From assembly GCA_964434115.1 (NCBI GenBank), contig CAYSSX010000001.1:165855-229854 (forward strand): a DNA stretch of 64,000 nt, in the 5' to 3' direction. Position numbers and translations under genes: made by a program. The notes below the pieces were generated by a model, which worked only from the letters and a program-made list of their open reading frames with translations, was not told where the DNA came from and did no database searches. Shown here in pieces: positions 46,316 through 58,387 of the stretch (positions are counted from its first letter, which is position 1; each line of letters opens with the position of its first letter). This DNA comes from an uncultured bacterium (GTDB lineage Bacteria; Omnitrophota; Omnitrophia; Omnitrophales; Aquincolibacteriaceae).

Positions 46316-47692
46316 TTACAAATCCTGGTAACGAACCACCCTGTTCCGGCCTTCTTCTTTGGCGCGGTACAGGGCGGCGTCAGCTTTGCTGATGAGTTCA
46401 TTTGATAGATTGAGTGTGTCGCCGCTTTTCTTATCCAAATCAGGACAATCTGCGGGAAACACGGAAACACCCACACTGGCTGTGACTTTGGTGTTCACGT
46501 CATAAACTTTGTAAATATGTCTCGCTATACTCGAGCGGATTCTTTCCGCAACTTCCAAGGCTCCGGCGGCACCGGTTTCGGGCATCGCCATAATAAATTC
46601 TTCCCCTCCAAAACGGGCCACAAGGTCTACTTTCCGGAGATTCGAACGAAGAATTCCCGCCACCTCACGCAGGGTTGCGTCCCCCACCAGGTGACCGAGT
46701 TCGTCATTATATCTTTTGAAGTGATCAATGTCTAACATTAATAATGCCAATGAGAAGCCGTGTTTTAGACTGCGCCGCAATTCATCTTCAAAGAGCACCA
46801 TAAAGTGGCGGCGTACGAAAACCTGGGTTAAATCATCAATGATTGACAGGGCTTTGACCGTGTCATAAAGGCGTATTTTTTTAATCTGAAGCACGAGGTG
46901 GGCAACCAGGACTTCGAATTTCGCTAAATCCGATACCTTGGCCCCAGAGACCGCCAAATAGGCCAGGGATTCCTGCTGAATGGTCAAATGAAACAGCCAT
47001 CGCGACTCCGAGACTTGAGGGAGGCGGTCTTTTTTGACCGAAAGGACGTCTTTTTTCTCCTGGTCCGTGAGCGGCCGTTCGGACTCCAGAACGCCGGATT
47101 CCTTGATCGCAAAAACGTGATGAGCGGAGTCTTCCGTGCTTCCGGCTCCGGAGGGTACGAGAAGCAGGTCCATTTCCTCAAAGGGAAGTTCCGGACGGAC
47201 TTTTTTATGCAAAGCCTCAGCGAGCGTGGAGTAGCTGAGGCATTCGCTGAAATCACGGGCAATTTCAAAAAGGTCCATCAGGCTGGCGGCCTGTTTTTCA
47301 AGGTGCTGCAAATTGTCAAGACGATGCTGGTGTTTGTGTTTGAGAATTTCCCAGTCCCGCAAAATCTCTTTATTTTTTTCACTTTCGAAAGCGACCTGGC
47401 TCTCCCATCTTTTATGATAAAAAATCAAAGAAGCAATCAATGCGAAATGGCCGGCGCATAAAAGCACCATTTCGGGTTCATAATCCCGGACGATATAAAA
47501 AAGTTCGGAGAGAAAAAACAGCGAGAGGCCGGAGAAGAAAAGTGTGCGGTTCCGTTCCAGATAAAAGTAGAACAATGGAAAAACAAGGAGCGACGAGAAA
47601 ACGTAATATGCCAGGTGCAGATCCCGCGTCTTGAAGTAGACCGCAGGCATCATAATAAGGAAGACCGCGAAGATCAGGTTTCGCTTGAGCAT
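46316..47692 (-). CDS. Membrane-anchored diguanylate cyclase (GGDEF domain)
   Basis: RFGGEEF active-site motif and DIDHFKRYND; N-terminal transmembrane helices. Confidence 0.85.
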   Translation of the reverse strand: MLKRNLIFAVFLIMMPAVYFKTRDLHLAYYVFSSLLVFPLFYFYLERNRTLFFSGLSLFFLSELFYIVRDYEPEMVLLCAGHFALIASLIFYHKRWESQVAFESEKNKEILRDWEILKHKHQHRLDNLQHLEKQAASLMDLFEIARDFSECLSYSTLAEALHKKVRPELPFEEMDLLLVPSGAGSTEDSAHHVFAIKESGVLESERPLTDQEKKDVLSVKKDRLPQVSESRWLFHLTIQQESLAYLAVSGAKVSDLAKFEVLVAHLVLQIKKIRLYDTVKALSIIDDLTQVFVRRHFMVLFEDELRRSLKHGFSLALLMLDIDHFKRYNDELGHLVGDATLREVAGILRSNLRKVDLVARFGGEEFIMAMPETGAAGALEVAERIRSSIARHIYKVYDVNTKVTASVGVSVFPADCPDLDKKSGDTLNLSNELISKADAALYRAKEEGRNRVVRYQDL

Positions 47693-49119
47693 ACCCGGTT
47701 CCTTCCCCCGCGCTTGGCTTTATACAGGGCTTCATCGGCTTTCTGGACGAGCATTTCCAGATCAAGGGTGTCCTGCGGCAGTGTTGCGACCCCGATGGAA
47801 ACGGTCATGGAAACCTGTTCGCGCCGGATCACGAAAGGTTTGCTTTCGACTTCTGAACGAACTCTTTCCGCGGTTCTTATAGCTTCCTCACGCGGACACT
47901 CCGGTAAAAGCACGGAAAATTCTTCACCGCCATAGCGCGCGACAACGGCATTGTCGCAGACCCCTTTAAGGATCTCCGAAAACCGCATCAGCATCAGATC
48001 GCCGCCGCCATGGCCGAAACGGTCATTGCATTCTTTAAAGTGATCAATGTCGCACATCAGCACCGAAAGCGGACGTTTGGTCAGAAGGGCCCGGCCGTGT
48101 TCTTGTTTAAGGCGGTCAAAGAAATAGCGTCTGACGTAAAGGCCCGTCAGGGAATCCTTGATCGCCAGCTCTTCGGTTTTCTCATAAAGCATGGCATTGG
48201 AAATAGCGGAAGAAGAAAGAGCCGCGATGGCGTCAATCAAGCGCAAGTCATCATTGGCGAACGTATTGGGCTCATGCGAGTTGACGCGGAGGGTTCCGAT
48301 GACGCGCCCTTCATGAAGCACCGGGGCAATGATCAAACTCCGGATGTCTTCCTGGCGCGCGGTTTCCGTGACGTCAAAGCGAAAGTCCTGGTGCGAGTCG
48401 GAAACGATAAAGCGCTTCCGGTTTTTGATGGACCACTGGTCAAAGAGATCGCCTTGTTTGGCCGCCGAGGCGGTCGTGTTTCGATGGCTCTTTTTGGAGG
48501 CCACCACGGACAGGTTCTTCCCCTCCGGATCGGCGAGGCTGAGCAGCGTGATGTCGCCGCGGGGAATAAAGTCATTAGTTCTTTCAGCCACCATTTTCCC
48601 CAGTTCACTCACCGACATGGTGGTCGCGAGTTCCTCGGCAAGCTTTCTGAGGTTGTAGTAGGTAGAGTATTTTTCGAAAAGAATACTGATCCCCTCGCCT
48701 TTGACTTTATAGGAAACCTCGAGGTCGTTTCTTTCGTTTTGAAATTTTTCGCGGTCCACCAGAAAATCCGCGATCCTGTTTTCAAAGCTTTCATCCATGC
48801 GGTAAAGCAGCAGGCACAAAATGGCGTAGGCCCCGAGAAACCAGACCACGACCGGGGATTCGGCAACGCCGTAAACAAAAAAGACGAGGATCGCGGCAAA
48901 GGATGCGAAGAGTCCCCCGCCGATAATCCGGAAAGCGATCCAGCCGCCGACAATGGGAAAGAAAAAACCGGAAAGGGCAAGAAAACAGCGCCTGAGATAA
49001 ACTTCGGGAATCAGGGTGTTTTCAAGCGCAGAAAGGGCGTGGATGATTTGATGCGTGAGAATAAAAGACAGAATGACAGATAGGACAAGACTAACGTGAC
49101 GACGGGTTGTTGAACCCAT
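47674..49119 (-). CDS. Diguanylate cyclase with N-terminal transmembrane helices and a GAF-like sensor domain (GGDEF)
   Basis: RYGGEEF and DIDHFKECND. A GAF-like region (LIIAPVLHEGRVIGTLRVNS) is present. Confidence 0.85.
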   Translation of the reverse strand: MGSTTRRHVSLVLSVILSFILTHQIIHALSALENTLIPEVYLRRCFLALSGFFFPIVGGWIAFRIIGGGLFASFAAILVFFVYGVAESPVVVWFLGAYAILCLLLYRMDESFENRIADFLVDREKFQNERNDLEVSYKVKGEGISILFEKYSTYYNLRKLAEELATTMSVSELGKMVAERTNDFIPRGDITLLSLADPEGKNLSVVASKKSHRNTTASAAKQGDLFDQWSIKNRKRFIVSDSHQDFRFDVTETARQEDIRSLIIAPVLHEGRVIGTLRVNSHEPNTFANDDLRLIDAIAALSSSAISNAMLYEKTEELAIKDSLTGLYVRRYFFDRLKQEHGRALLTKRPLSVLMCDIDHFKECNDRFGHGGGDLMLMRFSEILKGVCDNAVVARYGGEEFSVLLPECPREEAIRTAERVRSEVESKPFVIRREQVSMTVSIGVATLPQDTLDLEMLVQKADEALYKAKRGGRNRVCSSET

Positions 49120-53453: not shown

Positions 53454-54746
53454 TTACTTTCTCTCCTGAGTTTTCAGCCAATCTTCCAGACTCATAATTT
53501 TTCTCTCGTCCGGATCAAAGATATGCGTGCAGTTTCTTCCTTGGCGCTTGGATTCCAGAAGCGCAGCGTCTACCCACTTGATCAAAAAGTCGGAGTCGAT
53601 GGAATGAGCGGCTGTTTCCATGGTCACCCCGATGCTGATGGTGATGTGAAGGCCTTCCCCGGAAGACAGAGCCACATAAAGATTCGGATCGGTTTCCATG
53701 TATTGCCTCAGCCGTTCAGCAATTAAGGTGGCCTCATAGAGCTCAACGCCGGGAAGCACGACGCAGAATTCGTCGCCGCCGTAACGGAAAACCAGGGACT
53801 GGCCCGTCACGGTTTCTTTAACGTTCTGAGTCACCAGCTGTAGAATTCTGTCCCCCTGCTGATGCCCCGCCTTGTCGTTGATGGTTTTAAAACCGTCAAC
53901 GTCGAACATAATGATGGAAAAAAAATCCTGGCAGTTTTTATCTTTATAAACATCGGTCGACAGCCAGCGCGTCATGTAGCTTCGGTTGAAGGCGCCGCTG
54001 AGTGTGTCGATCAGGGCCAGGTTTTCCATCCGCTCATAAGCTCTTTTTAAGCGCACCTGATAATCCTGCAGCAGCCGGTTTTCACCTTCCATGCGCTTTT
54101 TAAGTGAAAATTCTTTAAAGCGCATGGTCTCGTTCATTTTGGCGGCGATGACGGCCACCGCGATGTAGAGAGCCAAAAAGGTGTTCGACTTCAGCATCCA
54201 GTCAGACTCGACGGATTCCCGGAGCATGAGGAGTCCCAACGGGTAGAAAAGATAAATGGAAAGACAGATGCAGGTGGTGGCAAAAGCTCCCCACGGCATC
54301 AGGAAACCCATCATGATGAAAAACAAGGTGTAGGTTCCCAGATGATCAATGCTGGTCGGATTTCCGGTAAGCTGAATAAGCGCCGTTGAAGCCCCCACAA
54401 AAATCGCGAGCATCATCGTGAACGCGTAACAGCTTTTTCTGAATTGCGGCAAAAAGCTGAGCGCCCCAAAAAAGAGAAGGACTCCGCTCGCGCAAATCCT
54501 TATTTTGGAAGCGGCTGTCAGCAAATAGTGCCCGCCTCCCTGGGTTAGAAAATCCGAAACCGCGGTGAAGGCAAACAGGGAAAACAAAATGGCCACGCAC
54601 AGGCGGAAGCGAGGGACGGCCAAACGGTCTGTTTCCAATTCAAAAAAGGATTTCAAATCATCCTGCGGAGCGGAATGATCCTTAATGAACCGAACCAGTT
54701 CCTCGCCGACCTTCCCCTCGTCCTTGGCGCGCTTGTTTTTTCCCAT
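53454..54746 (-). CDS. Membrane-anchored diguanylate cyclase (GGDEF domain)
   Basis: RYGGDEF and FDVDGFKTIND with multiple N-terminal transmembrane helices. Its stop codon lies 2 nt from the 3' end of the convergent tRNA-Thr. Confidence 0.85.
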   Translation of the reverse strand: MGKNKRAKDEGKVGEELVRFIKDHSAPQDDLKSFFELETDRLAVPRFRLCVAILFSLFAFTAVSDFLTQGGGHYLLTAASKIRICASGVLLFFGALSFLPQFRKSCYAFTMMLAIFVGASTALIQLTGNPTSIDHLGTYTLFFIMMGFLMPWGAFATTCICLSIYLFYPLGLLMLRESVESDWMLKSNTFLALYIAVAVIAAKMNETMRFKEFSLKKRMEGENRLLQDYQVRLKRAYERMENLALIDTLSGAFNRSYMTRWLSTDVYKDKNCQDFFSIIMFDVDGFKTINDKAGHQQGDRILQLVTQNVKETVTGQSLVFRYGGDEFCVVLPGVELYEATLIAERLRQYMETDPNLYVALSSGEGLHITISIGVTMETAAHSIDSDFLIKWVDAALLESKRQGRNCTHIFDPDERKIMSLEDWLKTQERK

Positions 54747-54751
54747 GGAGC

Positions 54752-54988
54752 TTAGGCGGCTTTCTTCATTGGTGCGGGTTTTGCCTGCGAGGCAAGTAAC
54801 ACGTTTCTTTGCTCCAGCAAAAAAAGAGCATGCTTGGAATAAAGCCCGCCCATGTGCTTCTGGGCGTTTTCAAGCGCGGCGTCCAGTTCGCTCAGGCTTA
54901 ACTTGCTGACCTTGGTGTGATGCTTTTGATGATCTGAAATTTTTACGGGCGCTTCGCTTTCCTGGCTCTTTTCTTTTTCCTTACCCAT
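54752..54988 (-). CDS. Small hypothetical protein (78 aa, K/E-rich N-terminus)
   Basis: ATG at 54988 preceded by GGAGGG. No recognisable domain. It lies upstream of the GGDEF gene in the same orientation. Confidence 0.35.
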   Translation of the reverse strand: MGKEKEKSQESEAPVKISDHQKHHTKVSKLSLSELDAALENAQKHMGGLYSKHALFLLEQRNVLLASQAKPAPMKKAA

Positions 54989-55146
54989 AGTCCCTCCACC
55001 AGCTATCAAGGTTAATCAAGATTGATCAAAATAGACTTCTTTTATGAATATAACCTCTATTTGCTTTTTTTCAAGGGTGGAGAAAGTAAAAGAATCCGAA
55101 AGTCAGATTTTAACTCTATATATTGAAAGGAGTTAGAAATGGCTTC

Positions 55147-55962
55147 TTAAGAGACAGAAGCAAAAGAAAAGGGATACGGAGGGTTTCCAAAGCAAAGAAA
55201 ACCGGGGTTTGTTAAGTCCGGCTTATTATAGAGGAACTCTTTTTTGTCCCATTGAAGGACGCTTCCCCCGGATTCATTGACAATGCAATGGGCGGCGGCG
55301 GTGTCCCATTCCATGGTGGGTCCGATTCTTGGATAAAAATGAGCGGAGCCTTCTGCGACAAGTCCCATTTTGAGGGCGCTTCCCACATTCAGGACCTTGA
55401 CCGGCTTCCATTCCGCAAGCAGACGGTCCATTTTATCCCGGTCGTGGGAGCGGCTTGCCGCCACAATAAGTCCCCCGGCCCGGTAATCTGCGGCGCGGAT
55501 CTTCTGGGTTTGTCCCGAAGGCCCTTTCTTGAATGCGCCCCCTCCGGAAAAAGCCGAGTACACAAAATGGAGTGCGGGCGCGAGCATAACGCCTAAAACA
55601 GGGCGGCTTTTGTGAATCAAACCGATGTTAACCGAAAACTCACCATTGCGATTCACGAATTCTTTGGTGCCGTCCAAGGGATCCACGAGCCAAAAGCTTT
55701 CCCAGTTTTTGCGCTCCTCAAAAGGCGGCGGGGCCGATTCTTCTGAGATCACGGGAATTGCCGGGGTCAATTGCTGTAGACCTTCGGAGATGATTTGATG
55801 GGATTGAGCATCGGCTAGCGTTAACGGAGACCGGTCTTCTTTATAAGTCACGGCAAAATCAGGATGGTGATAAACATCCAGGATGGCGGCACTGGCACGC
55901 TCTGCCAGCTGAACAACTGAGGGAAGGAGCTGGGCGAGAAACTGAGAATCGGGCGCTGCCAT
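55147..55962 (-). CDS. cysQ: 3'(2'),5'-bisphosphate nucleotidase CysQ (inositol monophosphatase family)
   Basis: WLVDPLDGTKEF metal-binding motif. The N-terminus aligns with CysQ. The track ORF starts with a TTG inside the repeat region, so the start is set at the ATG at 55962. Confidence 0.75.
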   Translation of the reverse strand: MAAPDSQFLAQLLPSVVQLAERASAAILDVYHHPDFAVTYKEDRSPLTLADAQSHQIISEGLQQLTPAIPVISEESAPPPFEERKNWESFWLVDPLDGTKEFVNRNGEFSVNIGLIHKSRPVLGVMLAPALHFVYSAFSGGGAFKKGPSGQTQKIRAADYRAGGLIVAASRSHDRDKMDRLLAEWKPVKVLNVGSALKMGLVAEGSAHFYPRIGPTMEWDTAAAHCIVNESGGSVLQWDKKEFLYNKPDLTNPGFLCFGNPPYPFSFASVS

Positions 55963-55996
55963 CACTGCGGCTTCTTTCTCAAAACAGAATTGAATC

Positions 55997-56188
55997 GGGA
56001 TACGGCCGTAAGCCAAATGCTTACGGCATTCCGCTCGGCCCTGACGGCCTTCGCTTCAGGAACCTTCGATTCCCTTTAAAAATAAATGGAGCGGGATACG
56101 GCCGTAAGCCAAATGCTTACGGCATTCCGCTCGGCCCTGACGGCCTTCGCTTCAGGAACCTTCGATTCCCTTTAAAAATAAATGGAGC
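55997..56188. repeat. Two perfect tandem copies of a 96-bp unit directly abutting tRNA-Gly, each ending with a 15-nt copy of the tRNA 3' end plus an 8-bp-stem hairpin
   Basis: The unit is gggatacggccgtaagccaaatgcttacggcattccgctcggccctgacggccttcgcttcaggaaccttcgattccctttaaaaataaatggagc, at 55997-56092 and 56093-56188. It contains the hairpin ccgtaagc-caaat-gcttacgg. In minus orientation it ends in CCGTATCCCGCTCCA, identical to the tRNA-Gly 3' terminus. Confidence 0.9.
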
Positions 56189-56257
56189 GGGATACGGGAA
56201 TCGAACCCGTCTGACCAGCTTGGGAAGCTGGGACATTACCACTATGCTAATCCCGCA
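56184..56257 (-). tRNA. tRNA-Gly (anticodon CCC), 74 nt with encoded CCA
   Basis: Manual fold: acceptor GCGGGAT/ATCCCGC, anticodon stem CCAGC/GCTGG with loop TTCCCAA, T-arm ACGGG-TTCGATT-CCCGT, and CCA. Confidence 0.85.
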
Positions 56258-56301
56258 TGGAGCCTATCTTACACGCCTCGAAAAGAATTGAAAAATGAAA
56301 T

Positions 56302-57231
56302 TTAAAAGGCGCTGGTATGACGGAAAAGTTCAAGCCTCTCATCAAGATCCCGGCGGGAGATCTTGCGGAGCTTTTCCAGCCCAAACTCTTCCACGGCAAA
56401 AGACGCGACAATCGTTCCGTAAGCCGCGGCGCGTTTGATATTCTCAAAAGAGGTATCACCTGTCGAAGCCAAATAGCCCATAAGCCCCCCGGCAAAACTG
56501 TCACCCGCGCCTGTCGGGTCAAAAACACTTTCAAGCGGATAGGCGGGTAAAGCAAAAAAGCGGTTTCCGGCGATGAGCAGAACCCCGTGTTCGCCTTTTT
56601 TAATCACCACGCATTCCGGGCCGTAACCGCGGATGATTTGAGCGGCCCGAACGAGGTTGGGTTCCCCGGTCAGCTGCCGAGCCTCCCCGTCGTTTAACAC
56701 AAACCCGTCAACGCGGGATAAAACTTTGAGCAACTCTTCCTTTTTGCTCGCGATCCAGTAGTTCATGGTGTCGCAGGCGACAAATTTAAGGCGCGGCTTT
56801 GAAAGCTGATCCAAAACCTTGAGCTGAAGAACCGGATCAATGTTCGCGAGAAAAACAAATTCGGGTTCCTGTTTTAAGCTGATTTTGGGGTTAAAGGCCG
56901 CTAAAACGTTCAAATGCGTTTCCAGAGTATTGGCGGAGTTCATGTCGTTTTCATAAAAACCTTTCCAGGCAAAAGTCTTTCCTGAAACGGTTTCGAGGTT
57001 TGACAAATCAATCGGGCGCTCCCCGAGAATGCGGCGGTATTCTTCAGGGAAATCCTCCCCGACCACGCCGACCAGCGCGACTTTCTGAAAAAAACTTGCG
57101 GCGTAAGAAAAATAGGAGGCGGATCCCCCAAAAACTTTTTCGCGGGATCCGAAAGGGGTTCGTATCGAATCAATCGCAACGGTTCCGACCACGACCAAAG
57201 GTTTGCTTGCGACCAGGGTTTCAGCGCTCAT
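56302..57231 (-). CDS. PfkB-family carbohydrate kinase (candidate heptose-7-phosphate kinase, HldA / HldE domain I equivalent)
   Basis: DPTGAGDSFAGG anion-hole motif and a ribokinase-like fold. The start is set at the internal ATG at 57231, 7 nt after the upstream stop. It lies directly downstream of the adenylyltransferase-ThiE gene and gmhA. Confidence 0.75.
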   Translation of the reverse strand: MSAETLVASKPLVVVGTVAIDSIRTPFGSREKVFGGSASYFSYAASFFQKVALVGVVGEDFPEEYRRILGERPIDLSNLETVSGKTFAWKGFYENDMNSANTLETHLNVLAAFNPKISLKQEPEFVFLANIDPVLQLKVLDQLSKPRLKFVACDTMNYWIASKKEELLKVLSRVDGFVLNDGEARQLTGEPNLVRAAQIIRGYGPECVVIKKGEHGVLLIAGNRFFALPAYPLESVFDPTGAGDSFAGGLMGYLASTGDTSFENIKRAAAYGTIVASFAVEEFGLEKLRKISRRDLDERLELFRHTSAF

Positions 57232-58387
57232 GACGGTAAATCCTTTCTGAAAGTTGATGAGCCGCCTGGGCGGGGTTTTTCGCGTCAAAAACGGCGCGCA
57301 CCACAGCCACCCGGACAGCGCCTGCATCCAGCACGCTTTTAAGATTTGATTCGTTAATACCGCCGATGGCGACAAAAGGTTTCTTTATTTCCCGGGCCGC
57401 CTGACGAACAAGCTTGAGTCCGACGGGAATATATCCGGGTTTGGTTGGAGTTGTGAAAACCGGCCCTACGCCGATGTAGTCAACTTCTTCCCGGGCCGTT
57501 TTACGCGCCTGAACAAGACTATGAGTAGACTTCCCAAGATACAGTTTGTGTCCGGCCTTTTTTAAAAGACCGCGAATCGCAGGGACGGGCAGATCATCCT
57601 GACCGATATGCAAACCGTCTGCATGACAGGCCAACGCGATATCGAGACGGTCATTGACGAAAAAAAGCTTTTGATAGCGGTCCGCGAGACGTCTGAGTCC
57701 GATACCCGCGGCCGCGAGTTCTTTATCGGAAATATTTTTTCCCCGCAGCTGGATAATGTCCGCGCCGCCTCGATAGACCGCCTCAGCCTTTTTGAGGAAG
57801 CCCGGAATGGAGTCACCCTGTTTCAGGTCTGAAACAGCGTAAAGGCGGAAATTTTTAAAAACAGTTTCGCGCCAGTCGCTCATTTGCCGGTTTATTTTCT
57901 GCCCGGCTTCGGGATGGGCCAAAATCTTTTCAATCACGCCCGTTGTGGACCGGCCTTTTAAAAAAGTAATGCGTTTTACTTTGCCGCCCCAGGAAAGCAC
58001 TTCCTTGCCGCCGACGATGTCGCCGGTTTTCCAATCCGCTCCCTTGACAAGCACATCGGGACGGGAAGCCAGGATCAGACGGAGGGGGGTCGGATCAGAA
58101 AAAAGCACTACGTAATCCACGCAGGAAAGAGCCGCCAGCACCGCCAGGCGGTCCTTTTCGGAGTTTACGGGCCGATGCGGCCCCTTGTAAGAACGGACCG
58201 AAGCGTCCGTGTTGATTCCGAGGATTAAGACATCACCCAGGGAGCGGGCTTTTTCAAGATACTGAACATGGCCCGCGTGGAGAATGTCGAAGGCCCCGTT
58301 TGTGAAAACAATTTTCTTCTTTTGCTTATGGAGGCGTGCTGCCGTTTTTTGAAGACTTGCGAGGGTGAGAACTTTCAGCTTATTCAT
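57221..58387 (-). CDS. Fusion protein: heptose-1-phosphate adenylyltransferase domain (HldE domain II / RfaE-II, cytidylyltransferase fold) plus thiamine-phosphate synthase domain (ThiE)
   Basis: N-terminus: IVFTNGAFDILHAGHVQYLEKARSLGD...VNSEKDR...VKGADW...GGKV, which matches RfaE domain II. C-terminus: LYAVSD...GADIIQLR...ADGLHIGQDDLP...LGKSTHSL...VDYIGVGPVFTTPTK, which matches ThiE. Confidence 0.8.
   Translation of the reverse strand: MNKLKVLTLASLQKTAARLHKQKKKIVFTNGAFDILHAGHVQYLEKARSLGDVLILGINTDASVRSYKGPHRPVNSEKDRLAVLAALSCVDYVVLFSDPTPLRLILASRPDVLVKGADWKTGDIVGGKEVLSWGGKVKRITFLKGRSTTGVIEKILAHPEAGQKINRQMSDWRETVFKNFRLYAVSDLKQGDSIPGFLKKAEAVYRGGADIIQLRGKNISDKELAAAGIGLRRLADRYQKLFFVNDRLDIALACHADGLHIGQDDLPVPAIRGLLKKAGHKLYLGKSTHSLVQARKTAREEVDYIGVGPVFTTPTKPGYIPVGLKLVRQAAREIKKPFVAIGGINESNLKSVLDAGAVRVAVVRAVFDAKNPAQAAHQLSERIYRHER

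What the first reader, a model, noticed from the sequence alone, without database searches (positions are those of the whole stretch)
55963..56260. tRNA-Gly(CCC) followed by two perfect 96-bp tandem repeats, each re-copying the tRNA 3' terminus plus a hairpin
Downstream of tRNA-Gly, in its transcriptional direction, lie two identical 96-bp units at 56093-56188 and 55997-56092. Each ends with CCGTATCCCGCTCCA, the last 15 nt of the tRNA including CCA. Each also contains a perfect 8-bp-stem hairpin (ccgtaagc-N5-gcttacgg) positioned where a T-arm would sit. The units are therefore tRNA 3'-half mimics. Duplicated tRNA 3' ends are the classic scars of integrase-mediated insertion at tRNA genes, but here the repeat spacing is only 96 bp and no integrase or cargo is present. 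Possible explanations are tandem duplication by slippage, relics of serial integration and excision, a processing or termination cassette, or a small structured RNA. The upstream gene cysQ has its annotated TTG start inside the repeat.
Basis: seen in the sequence. Interest (0 to 1): 0.55.

Follow-up and report, generated by a model that had tools for sequence, protein, structure and literature searches.

The report
Structured repeat array behind tRNA-Gly
Between a glycine tRNA gene and the next gene (cysQ) of an uncultured Omnitrophota bacterium lies a conserved ~96-base folded RNA module, present in 0 to 3 copies in relatives and ending in a copy of the tRNA's tail. It has the same layout as the E. 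coli tyrT/RtT repeats but is unrelated in sequence, so it is a modest curiosity rather than a new kind of system.

Summary
The core observation holds. tRNA-Gly(CCC) lies at 56256..56183 on the minus strand and is followed by a perfect 96-bp tandem repeat (55996-56197, 2.1 copies).

Three details are wrong:
- Only the first downstream copy of the tRNA tail is exact; the second matches 13 of 15 bases and has no CCA.
- The hairpin stem is 9 bp, not 8.
- cysQ starts at ATG 55962, outside the repeat.

The unit is neither an artefact nor an integrase scar. Homologous units occupy the same tRNA-Gly–cysQ spacer in related Omnitrophota assemblies, in one to three copies. Two relatives have none.

Units are 85-90% identical across genomes whose cysQ DNA is only 63-65% identical. 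Each of the three hairpins keeps its pairing through one compensatory change. No other copy exists in the window, and none was found in the genome, metagenome or viral scans. No Rfam family matches.

My best reading is a transcribed tRNA-trailer / cysQ-leader module. The array expands and contracts by unequal recombination between the tRNA-tail copies. It probably acts as a processing and termination/attenuation cassette.

This layout matches the E. coli tyrT–RtT locus, which I verified here, but there is no homology. The function remains inferred.

The parts
56183..56256 (-). tRNA-Gly(CCC) gene with encoded CCA. Its last 15 nt, CCGTATCCCGCTCCA (56197..56183), form the first copy of the repeated tail.
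   Evidence: ARAGORN; Rfam tRNA 61.1 bits; sequence
56266..56271 (-). Putative -10 element (TAAGAT) of the tRNA-Gly promoter, about 10 nt upstream of the mature 5' end. This is inferred.
   Evidence: Relatives have TAAAAT or TAGAAT at the same position. L001 has the promoter-like site TTTCCA-17-TAAAAT. The strict scan did not call a promoter in the window.
56087..56182 (-). Unit 1 (96 nt). It has a U-rich start UUUAUUUUUAAA, then hp1 at 56170..56154, hp2 at 56145..56133 and hp3 at 56123..56101. It ends in an exact copy of the tRNA's last 15 nt (56101..56087).
   Evidence: TRF; fold (z -3.7); covariance model hit of 111.5 bits
55991..56086 (-). Unit 2 (96 nt), identical to unit 1 down to 55996. 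It has hp1 at 56074..56058, hp2 at 56049..56037 and hp3 at 56027..56005. The tail copy is degenerate: CCGTATCCCGATTCA.
   Evidence: TRF; covariance model hit of 107.8 bits
55963..55990 (-). Short cysQ leader. Its first bases (ATTCTGTTT...) resemble a diverged start of a further unit. A purine-rich stretch (GAGAAAGAAG) precedes the ATG.
   Evidence: Direct-repeat families D1/D2; sequence
55147..55962 (-). cysQ (3'(2'),5'-bisphosphate nucleotidase, 271 aa). It lies on the same strand directly downstream and is probably co-transcribed with the tRNA.
   Evidence: P0001 is 100% identical over 271 aa, Pfam PF00459. Relatives without units have only 25-43 nt between the tRNA and cysQ.

Best explanation
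The array consists of a lineage-specific ~96-nt structured module in the spacer between tRNA-Gly(CCC) and cysQ of a Candidatus Omnitrophota bacterium. That spacer is inferred to be transcribed, from the conserved tRNA promoter and the 25-43 nt tRNA-cysQ gap in relatives without units. Each module has a U-rich linker, two short conserved hairpins and a 9-bp hairpin with a variable loop. It ends in a copy of the last 10-15 nt of the tRNA. That tail can pair back onto GAGCGG(AAU) just 5' of the third hairpin.

Shown:
- The module is conserved at this one locus across related genomes.
- It varies from 0 to 3 copies.
- It is much better conserved than its flanks.
- Its hairpins are kept by compensatory changes.

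Inferred:
1. The array grows and shrinks by unequal recombination or slippage between the tRNA-tail copies. The window's two perfect copies are a recent expansion.
2. The units are transcribed from the tRNA promoter as tRNA 3' trailer and cysQ leader.
3. The 3' domain is followed 2 nt later by the next unit's U-tract. It serves as a processing and termination/attenuation signal.
4. This signal uncouples cysQ from the strong tRNA promoter. It may also release a small stable RNA, as the E. coli tyrT operon releases RtT RNA.
For: Anatomy:
- Searches give the sequence, repeat and fold of the unit.

Same locus in relatives:
- The order PFK, SIS, RfaE/ThiE, PfkB, tRNA-Gly, units, CysQ, GGDEF, tRNA-Thr is shared.
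- L001, L002 and L009, from three independent data sources, carry two units at 85% identity plus a degenerate third.
- L015 and L017 carry one unit each.
- Contigs L010, L013, L014, L016, L102 and L103 break inside or at the unit. L102 and L014 overlap by 30 nt, as expected for a repeat.
- L004 and L006 have no unit.

Selection:
- Units are 85-90% identical between the window and group B. By comparison, cysQ DNA is 63-65% identical and the region upstream of the tRNA is 60% identical.

Structure:
- 95.7% of cells are paired.
- Five pairs changed on both sides, one in each helix.
- No shuffle reached the observed covariation score, and slid controls score far lower.

Terminator geometry:
- The 3' domain of unit 1 folds at -25.3 kcal/mol and closes 2 nt before UUUAUUUUU.
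- In L005 the terminal unit's hp3 followed by T6 is a canonical terminator.

Co-transcription:
- A conserved -10 element lies upstream of the tRNA.
- No promoter-like site lies in the array.
- Only 25-43 nt separate the tRNA from cysQ where units are absent.

Precedent:
- The E. coli tyrT/tyrV locus has a 178-bp repeat in 3.1 copies. Each copy ends with the last 19 nt of tRNA-Tyr.
- That tail pairs back onto an internal GGGGAAGGAU.
Against: - There are no expression data of any kind, so transcription, processing and termination are all inferred.
- Only seven distinct full units were available, giving one compensatory pair per helix. Related sequences can beat the shuffle controls without any structure.
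- In single-unit genomes no usable U-tract follows the unit. L017 has none, and in L015 it lies 9 nt away. The terminator role therefore cannot be the conserved function of a single unit.
- The helix that involves the tRNA-derived tail is the least supported. The acceptor-like register is 79% paired with no compensation. The tail copy next to cysQ decays in L005, L010, L014, L001 unit 3 and window unit 2.
- The closest relative by CysQ (L004, 75-77%) does without the module entirely.
Confidence: 0.5

Rival explanations
1. The repeat is essentially neutral. One ancestral trailer served only as the tRNA's terminator region and happened to end in a short tail-like sequence. The two perfect copies are a recent slippage event with no added function.
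For: - The two copies are 100% identical, which points to a recent event.
- Copy number varies freely from 0 to 3, and the closest relative has none.
- The terminal tail copies decay.
- The hp3 loop is not conserved, as in ordinary terminator hairpins.
Against: - Units are 85-90% identical where the flanks are 60-65% identical.
- hp1, hp2 and their purine-rich linkers are conserved and are not terminator-like.
- Units 1 and 2 of L001 have diverged to 85% yet keep all their hairpins. That array is old and has been maintained.
Confidence: 0.2
2. The unit is a trans-acting small RNA that mimics the tRNA acceptor end. tRNA-processing enzymes cut it from the trailer, and it has its own target or protein partner.
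For: - In the window, GCGGAAU can pair with AUCCCGC and leave a free UCCA tail. This resembles a tRNA-Gly acceptor stem stacked on a hairpin.
- A U-rich single-stranded linker separates the units.
- The E. coli RtT precedent shows such an RNA released from the same kind of repeat (PMC3318445 citing Bosl and Kersten 1991).
Against: - The acceptor-like helix shows no compensatory change and is broken in L001, L015 and L017.
- The CCA is lost in window unit 2, L010 and L014.
- The alternative pairing GGAAU/GCUCC is better supported and buries the tail.
Confidence: 0.13
3. The unit is a cis-regulatory leader of cysQ, such as a riboswitch or a protein-binding element. The tail pairing would act as the expression platform.
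For: - The unit sits directly upstream of cysQ on the same strand.
- Two mutually exclusive pairings use the GCGG segment: an hp2 extension or the closing helix.
- Loops and linkers in hp1 and hp2 are conserved.
Against: - No Rfam family matches, even at E <= 10.
- The element is dispensable in L004 and L006.
- Free variation in copy number and perfect duplicates are unusual for an aptamer.
- The unit's position is tied to the tRNA end rather than to the cysQ start.
Confidence: 0.08
4. The units are scars of integrase-mediated integration and excision at the tRNA 3' end: attL/attR remnants or a tiny non-autonomous element.
For: - The tRNA 3' end is duplicated, and units are present or absent among relatives.
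- The segment between the tail copies has no detectable similarity to the tRNA body. It could therefore have come from elsewhere.
Against: - There is no integrase or cargo. Neighbouring genes are housekeeping and syntenic in every relative.
- The unit was found nowhere else in the window or the loci.
- The unit pattern was absent from the genome and viral collections. In metagenomes it hit only the orthologous locus. The three viral hits to a shorter pattern are chance matches.
- The sequence after each tail copy is similar, which fits tandem duplication rather than element-host junctions.
- The unit is under strong purifying selection and carries compensatory changes.
Confidence: 0.06
5. The perfect duplication is an assembly artefact: a mis-resolved loop in the assembly graph.
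For: - A perfect 202-bp repeat is hard to size with short reads.
- Many relatives' contigs break exactly here.
Against: - Arrays with diverged copies, which cannot be assembly artefacts, exist in L001, L002 and L009 from three independent sources.
- At least one unit is certainly real. Only the exact copy number in the window is uncertain.
Confidence: 0.03

Closest known systems
E. coli tyrT/tyrV operon repeats encoding RtT RNA (rttR, Rfam RF00391) and the Tpr peptide
   Same: - A tRNA gene is followed on the same strand by tandem repeats, and each repeat ends in the tRNA's 3' terminus including CCA. I verified this here: period 178 bp, 3.1 copies, 95% matches, tail AATCCTTCCCCCACCACCA.
- In both, the tRNA-derived tail pairs back onto an internal complementary segment and closes a structured domain.
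- Copy number varies by recombination between the tail copies.
   Different: - There is no sequence or structure homology. RF00391 hits all four E. coli units at 133-137 bits but nothing in the window, even at E <= 10.
- The unit is 96 nt rather than 178 nt.
- The tRNA is Gly(CCC) rather than Tyr.
- There is no conserved peptide ORF.
- The phylum is different (Omnitrophota).
- The downstream partner is cysQ.
- In the predicted fold, the closing helix encloses only the third hairpin.
tRNA 3' external transcribed spacers that act as small RNAs (for example 3'ETS-leuZ of E. coli; recalled from my own knowledge, not checked here)
   Same: Both are structured RNA encoded directly after a tRNA, made by tRNA-processing cleavage of the precursor.
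   Different: Those spacers are single-copy and do not re-copy the tRNA tail. No target or sponge function can be proposed here.
att-site duplications left by tRNA-targeting integrases, including cis-mobilizable elements without an integrase (recalled from my own knowledge)
   Same: Both show direct repeats of the 3' part of a tRNA gene that flank inserted DNA, with presence or absence among relatives.
   Different: - Only 81 nt lie between the copies.
- There is no integrase or cargo anywhere in the 64 kb.
- The sequence following each copy is similar.
- The unit is conserved and structured, and it is confined to one locus.
Rho-independent (intrinsic) terminators and tandem terminators after stable-RNA genes
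   Same: A GC-rich helix (-25 kcal/mol) ends 2 nt before UUUAUUUUU at the internal unit junction. L005's terminal unit is a textbook terminator.
   Different: - The helix is interrupted by an asymmetric internal loop.
- Single-unit arrays lack the U-tract.
- Half of the unit (hp1, hp2 and their linkers) is not explained by a terminator.

Membership tests
RtT RNA / tyrT-type repeats (Rfam RF00391) | Match to the RF00391 covariance model at or above its gathering score (45 bits) | tested here: not met
   No hit in the window at gathering score or at E <= 10 over 55940-56200. As a positive control, four E. coli units score 133-137 bits.
RtT RNA / tyrT-type repeats (Rfam RF00391) | Tandem units directly downstream of a tRNA gene on the same strand, each ending with the tRNA's 3'-terminal nucleotides | tested here: met
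   for the window; for E. coli. The last unit's tail is degenerate (13 of 15).
RtT RNA / tyrT-type repeats (Rfam RF00391) | A discrete RNA released from the tRNA operon transcript by processing | not testable with these tools
   No expression data are available for this uncultured lineage.
Integrase att-site scar / integrative element at a tRNA gene | A tyrosine or serine integrase, or other element genes, between or next to the repeated tRNA 3' segments | tested here: not met
   The ORFs around the locus are housekeeping and syntenic with relatives. Only 81 nt lie between the copies.
Integrase att-site scar / integrative element at a tRNA gene | The same element sequence is found at other sites, in other genomes, or in mobile or viral DNA | tested here: not met
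   The covariance model finds no other copy in 110 kb of held sequence. Pattern scans gave 0 hits in genomes, only the orthologous locus in metagenomes, and 0 in viral contigs. The scans need exact matches to a pattern built from two species, so sensitivity is limited.
Intrinsic terminator | A GC-rich stem-loop immediately followed by a U-tract | tested here: inconclusive
   Met at the unit 1/unit 2 junction only if a helix with an internal loop is accepted. The simple scan does not call it. Met canonically in L005. Not met after window unit 2, or after the single units of L015 and L017.
tRNA or tRNA pseudogene | A cloverleaf detectable by tRNA models, or residual similarity to the tRNA body | tested here: not met
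   ARAGORN and the Rfam tRNA model hit only the true tRNA. The first 81 nt of the unit show no similarity to the tRNA's 5' 59 nt beyond shuffles.
Conserved structured RNA (general) | Base pairs maintained by compensatory substitutions across homologues | tested here: met
   Five pairs changed on both sides, one per helix. 95.7% of cells are paired, against 22-50% in slid controls. Power is limited, with only seven sequences.

The most novel reading that the evidence does not exclude
The units may be a new family of small RNAs that mimic the tRNA acceptor end. RNase P, RNase E or RNase Z would cut them from the tRNA-Gly trailer. Their GCGGAAU/AUCCCGC helix with a UCCA tail would carry what I recall to be the acceptor-stem identity elements of tRNA-Gly (G1-C72, C2-G71, G3-C70, U73). 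That could let them engage tRNA-handling enzymes such as the CCA-adding enzyme or GlyRS, or act in trans on translation or stress responses. If so, unit copy number would be a dosage control.
Probability: 0.12. Interest if true: 0.65.

Novelty: new variant of a known kind. Interest (0 to 1): 0.35.

Why it matters
The E. coli tyrT/RtT arrangement has been known for decades, as I recall it. It consists of tandem repeats behind a tRNA gene, each re-copying the tRNA's tail. [quoted passage not shown]

An independent, non-homologous example in a distant uncultured phylum suggests the layout is a recurrent solution rather than a one-off. This example is conserved and structured, and its copy number varies.

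Two explanations for the recurrence seem possible. The tRNA tail may be a convenient recombination handle. Alternatively, a tRNA-like 3' end may be a useful processing and stability signal for a trailer RNA.

The finding also has two practical consequences:
- The repeat breaks short-read assemblies of these genomes exactly at this locus.
- It misleads gene callers into extending cysQ into the repeat. One relative is annotated with a 294-aa product.

Tried and rejected
1. Looking up the window's own CysQ (289-aa and 271-aa forms, and P0001) in the contig index found nothing. Copy number in the source assembly or its strains could not be checked.
2. The genome-contig scan with the unit pattern gave 0 hits. 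The protein-based scan of the same collection returned only distant CysQ relatives at <= 51% identity. That collection therefore gave neither a close relative nor a taxon name.
3. The cluster look-up gave no names. Taxonomy came instead from named AccC homologues, all Candidatus Omnitrophota.
4. Three viral-contig hits to the pattern GCTTNCGGCNCGTATCCCG share nothing with the unit beyond the pattern, so they are chance matches.
5. The pseudo-tRNA origin is not supported. The unit body shows no similarity to the tRNA body.
6. An antisense 29-codon ORF (MERDTAVSQMLTAFRSALTAFASGTFDSL) lies in each window unit. It starts on the complement of CCA-T. I rejected it because the frame is broken by stops and indels in L015, and the substitutions follow RNA pairing.
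7. The weak Rfam matches PYLIS_3 and SMAD5-AS1_3 (E 2-4, 11 bits) are noise.
8. The original RtT paper (PMC329039) is not held. I checked the E. coli facts directly on NC_000913 instead.

Full report
**1. What is in the sequence**

On the minus strand, ARAGORN and Rfam both call tRNA-Gly(CCC) at 56256..56183 with an encoded CCA. Tandem Repeats Finder reports a 96-bp period over 55996-56197: 2.1 copies, 100% matches, score 404.

Read in the tRNA's direction, the layout is as follows:
- the tRNA, ending ...CCGTATCCCG|CTCCA
- unit 1 (56182..56087): TTTATTTTTAAAGGGAATCGAAGGTTCCTGAAGCGAAGGCCGTCAGGGCCGAGCGGAATGCCGTAAGCATTTGGCTTACGGCCGTATCCCGCTCCA
- unit 2 (56086..55991): identical to unit 1 up to CCGTATCCCG, then ATTCA
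- 28 nt of leader
- the cysQ ATG at 55962

The exact 15-mer tail therefore occurs twice, and a third copy matches 13 of 15 without CCA. The hairpin is 9 bp with a 5-nt loop.

The TTG at 56016 only opens the longest ORF. The database protein identical to this gene and its homologues are about 271 aa and start at ATG 55962. Similarity continues weakly beyond the perfect repeat (55982-56005, 79%), so the array ends in an older, diverged partial unit.

**2. It is a conserved feature of a clade, not an artefact**

Named AccC homologues place the organism in Candidatus Omnitrophota. I used CysQ homologues to fetch syntenic contigs. These all share the gene order PFK, SIS, RfaE/ThiE fusion, PfkB, tRNA-Gly(CCC), CysQ, small ORF, GGDEF, tRNA-Thr.

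| Locus | CysQ identity to window | Units found |
|---|---|---|
| L001 = L002 = L009 (ENA, Logan and JGI assemblies) | 65% | tRNA plus a 95-bp repeat, 2.5 copies at 85%, then a degenerate third unit |
| L015 | – | exactly one unit, followed by about 17 nt that again resemble a unit start |
| L017 | – | exactly one unit |
| L005, L010, L013, L014, L016 | – | contigs start inside a unit |
| L102, L103 | – | contigs end 30 nt into a unit; L102 overlaps L014 by those 30 nt, the signature of a repeat that breaks a short-read assembly |
| L004 (closest relative by CysQ) | 75-77% | none; only 25 nt between the tRNA and cysQ |
| L006 | 60-63% | none; only 43 nt between the tRNA and cysQ |

On a CysQ neighbour-joining tree, the simplest history is one gain after L006 branched off, followed by loss in L004. 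Loss is easy here: recombination between the tail copies deletes units precisely and leaves an intact tRNA.

**3. It is under selection and structured**

Units from the window and from group B are 85-90% identical. In the same genome pairs, cysQ DNA is 63-65% identical and the 80 nt upstream of the tRNA are 60% identical.

A single unit folds well below its shuffles (-39.9 kcal/mol, z -3.7). RNAalifold on seven distinct units gives these elements:
- hp1: GGGAAUC-GAA-GRUUCCY
- hp2: GGCC-GUCAR-GGCC, with a 2-bp extension
- hp3: 9 bp with a variable loop
- a closing helix that involves the tRNA-derived tail

Each helix has one pair that changed on both sides. Across the structure, 95.7% of cells are paired, against 22-50% when the partners are slid. 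No shuffle reached the observed covariation score. This evidence is suggestive but thin. There are only seven sequences, two of which differ only in the tail.

The tail pairing is ambiguous. An acceptor-like register, (GA)GCGGAAU with AUCCCGC(UC), is 79% paired and shows no compensation. The alternative, GGARU with GYUCC, is 88.6% paired and has one covarying pair.

The tail copy next to cysQ decays in several lineages:

| Unit | Tail sequence next to cysQ |
|---|---|
| L005 | GTTTTTTGTTCCA |
| L001 unit 3 | GTATTTTGTTCCA |
| L010 | GTATCTTATTCGA |
| Window unit 2 | GTATCCCGATTCA |

The tail is therefore not conserved as a strict tRNA mimic.

**4. It is confined to this locus and matches no known family**

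A covariance model built from the units (R1) finds only the units themselves. It was run on the 64-kb window and on 47 kb of related loci.

A degenerate 22-base pattern from the unit's 5' half gave these results:
- genome collection: 0 hits
- JGI metagenomes: only the orthologous contig
- viral contigs: 0 hits

Three viral hits to a shorter pattern are chance matches.

Rfam gives nothing at gathering score, and only 11-bit noise at E <= 10. ARAGORN sees no tRNA-like gene in the units. The unit body has no similarity to the tRNA body.

There is no integrase or cargo. Every neighbouring gene is housekeeping and syntenic.

**5. How it most likely works**

*Shown.* The anatomy, the conservation, the copy-number variation and the hairpins are all direct results.

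*Inferred, step a: co-transcription.*
- A conserved -10 element lies about 10 nt upstream of the tRNA. It reads TAAGAT in the window and TAAAAT or TAGAAT in relatives. L001 has TTTCCA-17-TAAAAT.
- This lineage uses recognisable sigma-70-type promoters. An example is TTGAAA-17-TATAGT upstream of the next gene.
- No promoter-like site lies between the tRNA and cysQ.
- Genomes without units leave only 25-43 nt there.
- Taken together, tRNA-Gly and cysQ are probably co-transcribed. The units would then be both tRNA trailer and cysQ leader.

*Inferred, step b: array dynamics.* The array has the form A-x-A-x-A', where A is the tail. This is what unequal recombination or slippage between A copies produces. 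The window's perfect pair is recent, and L001's pair at 85% is old.

The sequence after each A is similar. In the window it is TTTATTTTTAAAGG twice, then ATTCAATTCTGTTT. In L015 it is TTCATTTTTAAGGGAA and then ATCACTTTTTAAGGAA. This fits tandem duplication and does not fit integrase junctions.

*Inferred, step c: function.*
- The 3' domain of an internal unit folds at -25.3 kcal/mol and closes 2 nt before the next unit's UUUAUUUUU.
- In L005 the terminal hp3 followed by T6 is a canonical terminator.
- The module therefore probably terminates or attenuates read-through from the tRNA promoter into cysQ.
- Together with the U-rich linkers, it probably also provides processing sites.
- A processed small RNA is possible.

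*Weak points.* Single-unit arrays (L015, L017) lack a well-placed U-tract. hp1, hp2 and their conserved purine-rich linkers are not explained by a terminator. The closest relative lacks the module.

**6. Comparison with what is known**

The closest precedent is the E. coli tyrT/tyrV locus. I checked it directly on NC_000913. Downstream of tyrV lies a 178-bp repeat in 3.1 copies at 95% identity. Each unit ends with the last 19 nt of tRNA-Tyr (AATCCTTCCCCCACCACCA). The small RNA RttR and the peptide gene tpr are annotated inside it.

In the predicted fold, the tRNA-derived tail pairs with an internal GGGGAAGGAU and closes a multi-hairpin domain. [quoted passage not shown] RtT may modulate the stringent response, but its mode of action is unknown (bioRxiv 10.1101/2024.07.17.603846).

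The present array has the same layout but is not a member of that family. RF00391 hits all four E. coli units at 133-137 bits and nothing here. The unit size, tRNA, phylum and downstream gene all differ, and no peptide ORF is conserved.

Other partial analogues are tRNA 3'ETS small RNAs, att-site duplications and tandem terminators. The first two are from my own knowledge and were not tested here.

**7. Verdict**

This is a real, conserved and structured repeat module whose copy number varies, sitting behind tRNA-Gly in an Omnitrophota clade. It is a non-homologous variant of the tyrT/RtT type of tRNA-linked repeat.

The integrase-scar reading is not supported, and the function remains inferred. 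Interest is modest. The independent recurrence of this odd layout is worth noting and is testable, but it does not define a new kind of system.

Noticed in passing
window 56196-56205 versus 56161-56170 and 56065-56074: The 5' strand of hp1 in each unit (GGGAATCGAA) is a perfect 10-nt reverse complement of the tRNA's T-loop and T-stem (TTCGATTCCC). In the precursor transcript it could compete with folding of the T-arm, or hp1 may descend from an inverted T-arm. The segment is conserved in most relatives' units.
   Followed up: partly
window 54980-55150 (minus strand); L001 5812-5965 and equivalents: The spacer between cysQ and the next small ORF holds a strongly conserved promoter-like CTTGAAAAAA-N-TATAGT/TATATT. 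It is followed by repeated TTGAT(A/C) motifs in the leader. Both are invariant across genomes whose coding DNA is about 65% identical, which suggests a regulated promoter or operator.
   Followed up: partly
window 54752-55009 (minus strand): A small lysine- and glutamate-rich ORF (78-85 aa, MGKEKEK...) with no Pfam hit lies directly after cysQ. It is conserved in every syntenic relative.
   Followed up: no
window 57221-58387 (minus strand): A 388-aa protein fuses a cytidylyltransferase-like domain (RfaE domain II type, PF01467) to a thiamine-phosphate synthase domain (TMP-TENI, PF02581). This unusual fusion is conserved in all relatives.
   Followed up: no
L005 1-60 and 120-1004: The NCBI contig JAHZTO010005651.1 starts with about 45 nt unrelated to the tRNA and then joins at ...ATTCCCGTATCCCGCTCCA, which is probably an assembly join at the repeat. 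Its CysQ is annotated as 294 aa because the call was extended into the unit. This is the same kind of over-extension as the TTG ORF in the window.
   Followed up: partly
window 56087-56182 and 55996-56086, plus strand: Each unit carries an antisense 29-codon ORF (MERDTAVSQMLTAFRSALTAFASGTFDSL) that starts on the complement of CCA-T. It stays open in L001, L005 and L017 but is broken in L015, so it is probably spurious.
   Followed up: yes
window 46316-49119 and 53454-54746 (minus strand): Three GGDEF diguanylate cyclase genes lie within 9 kb, one of them with a GAF domain. That is a dense cyclic-di-GMP signalling neighbourhood next to rpoN.
   Followed up: no
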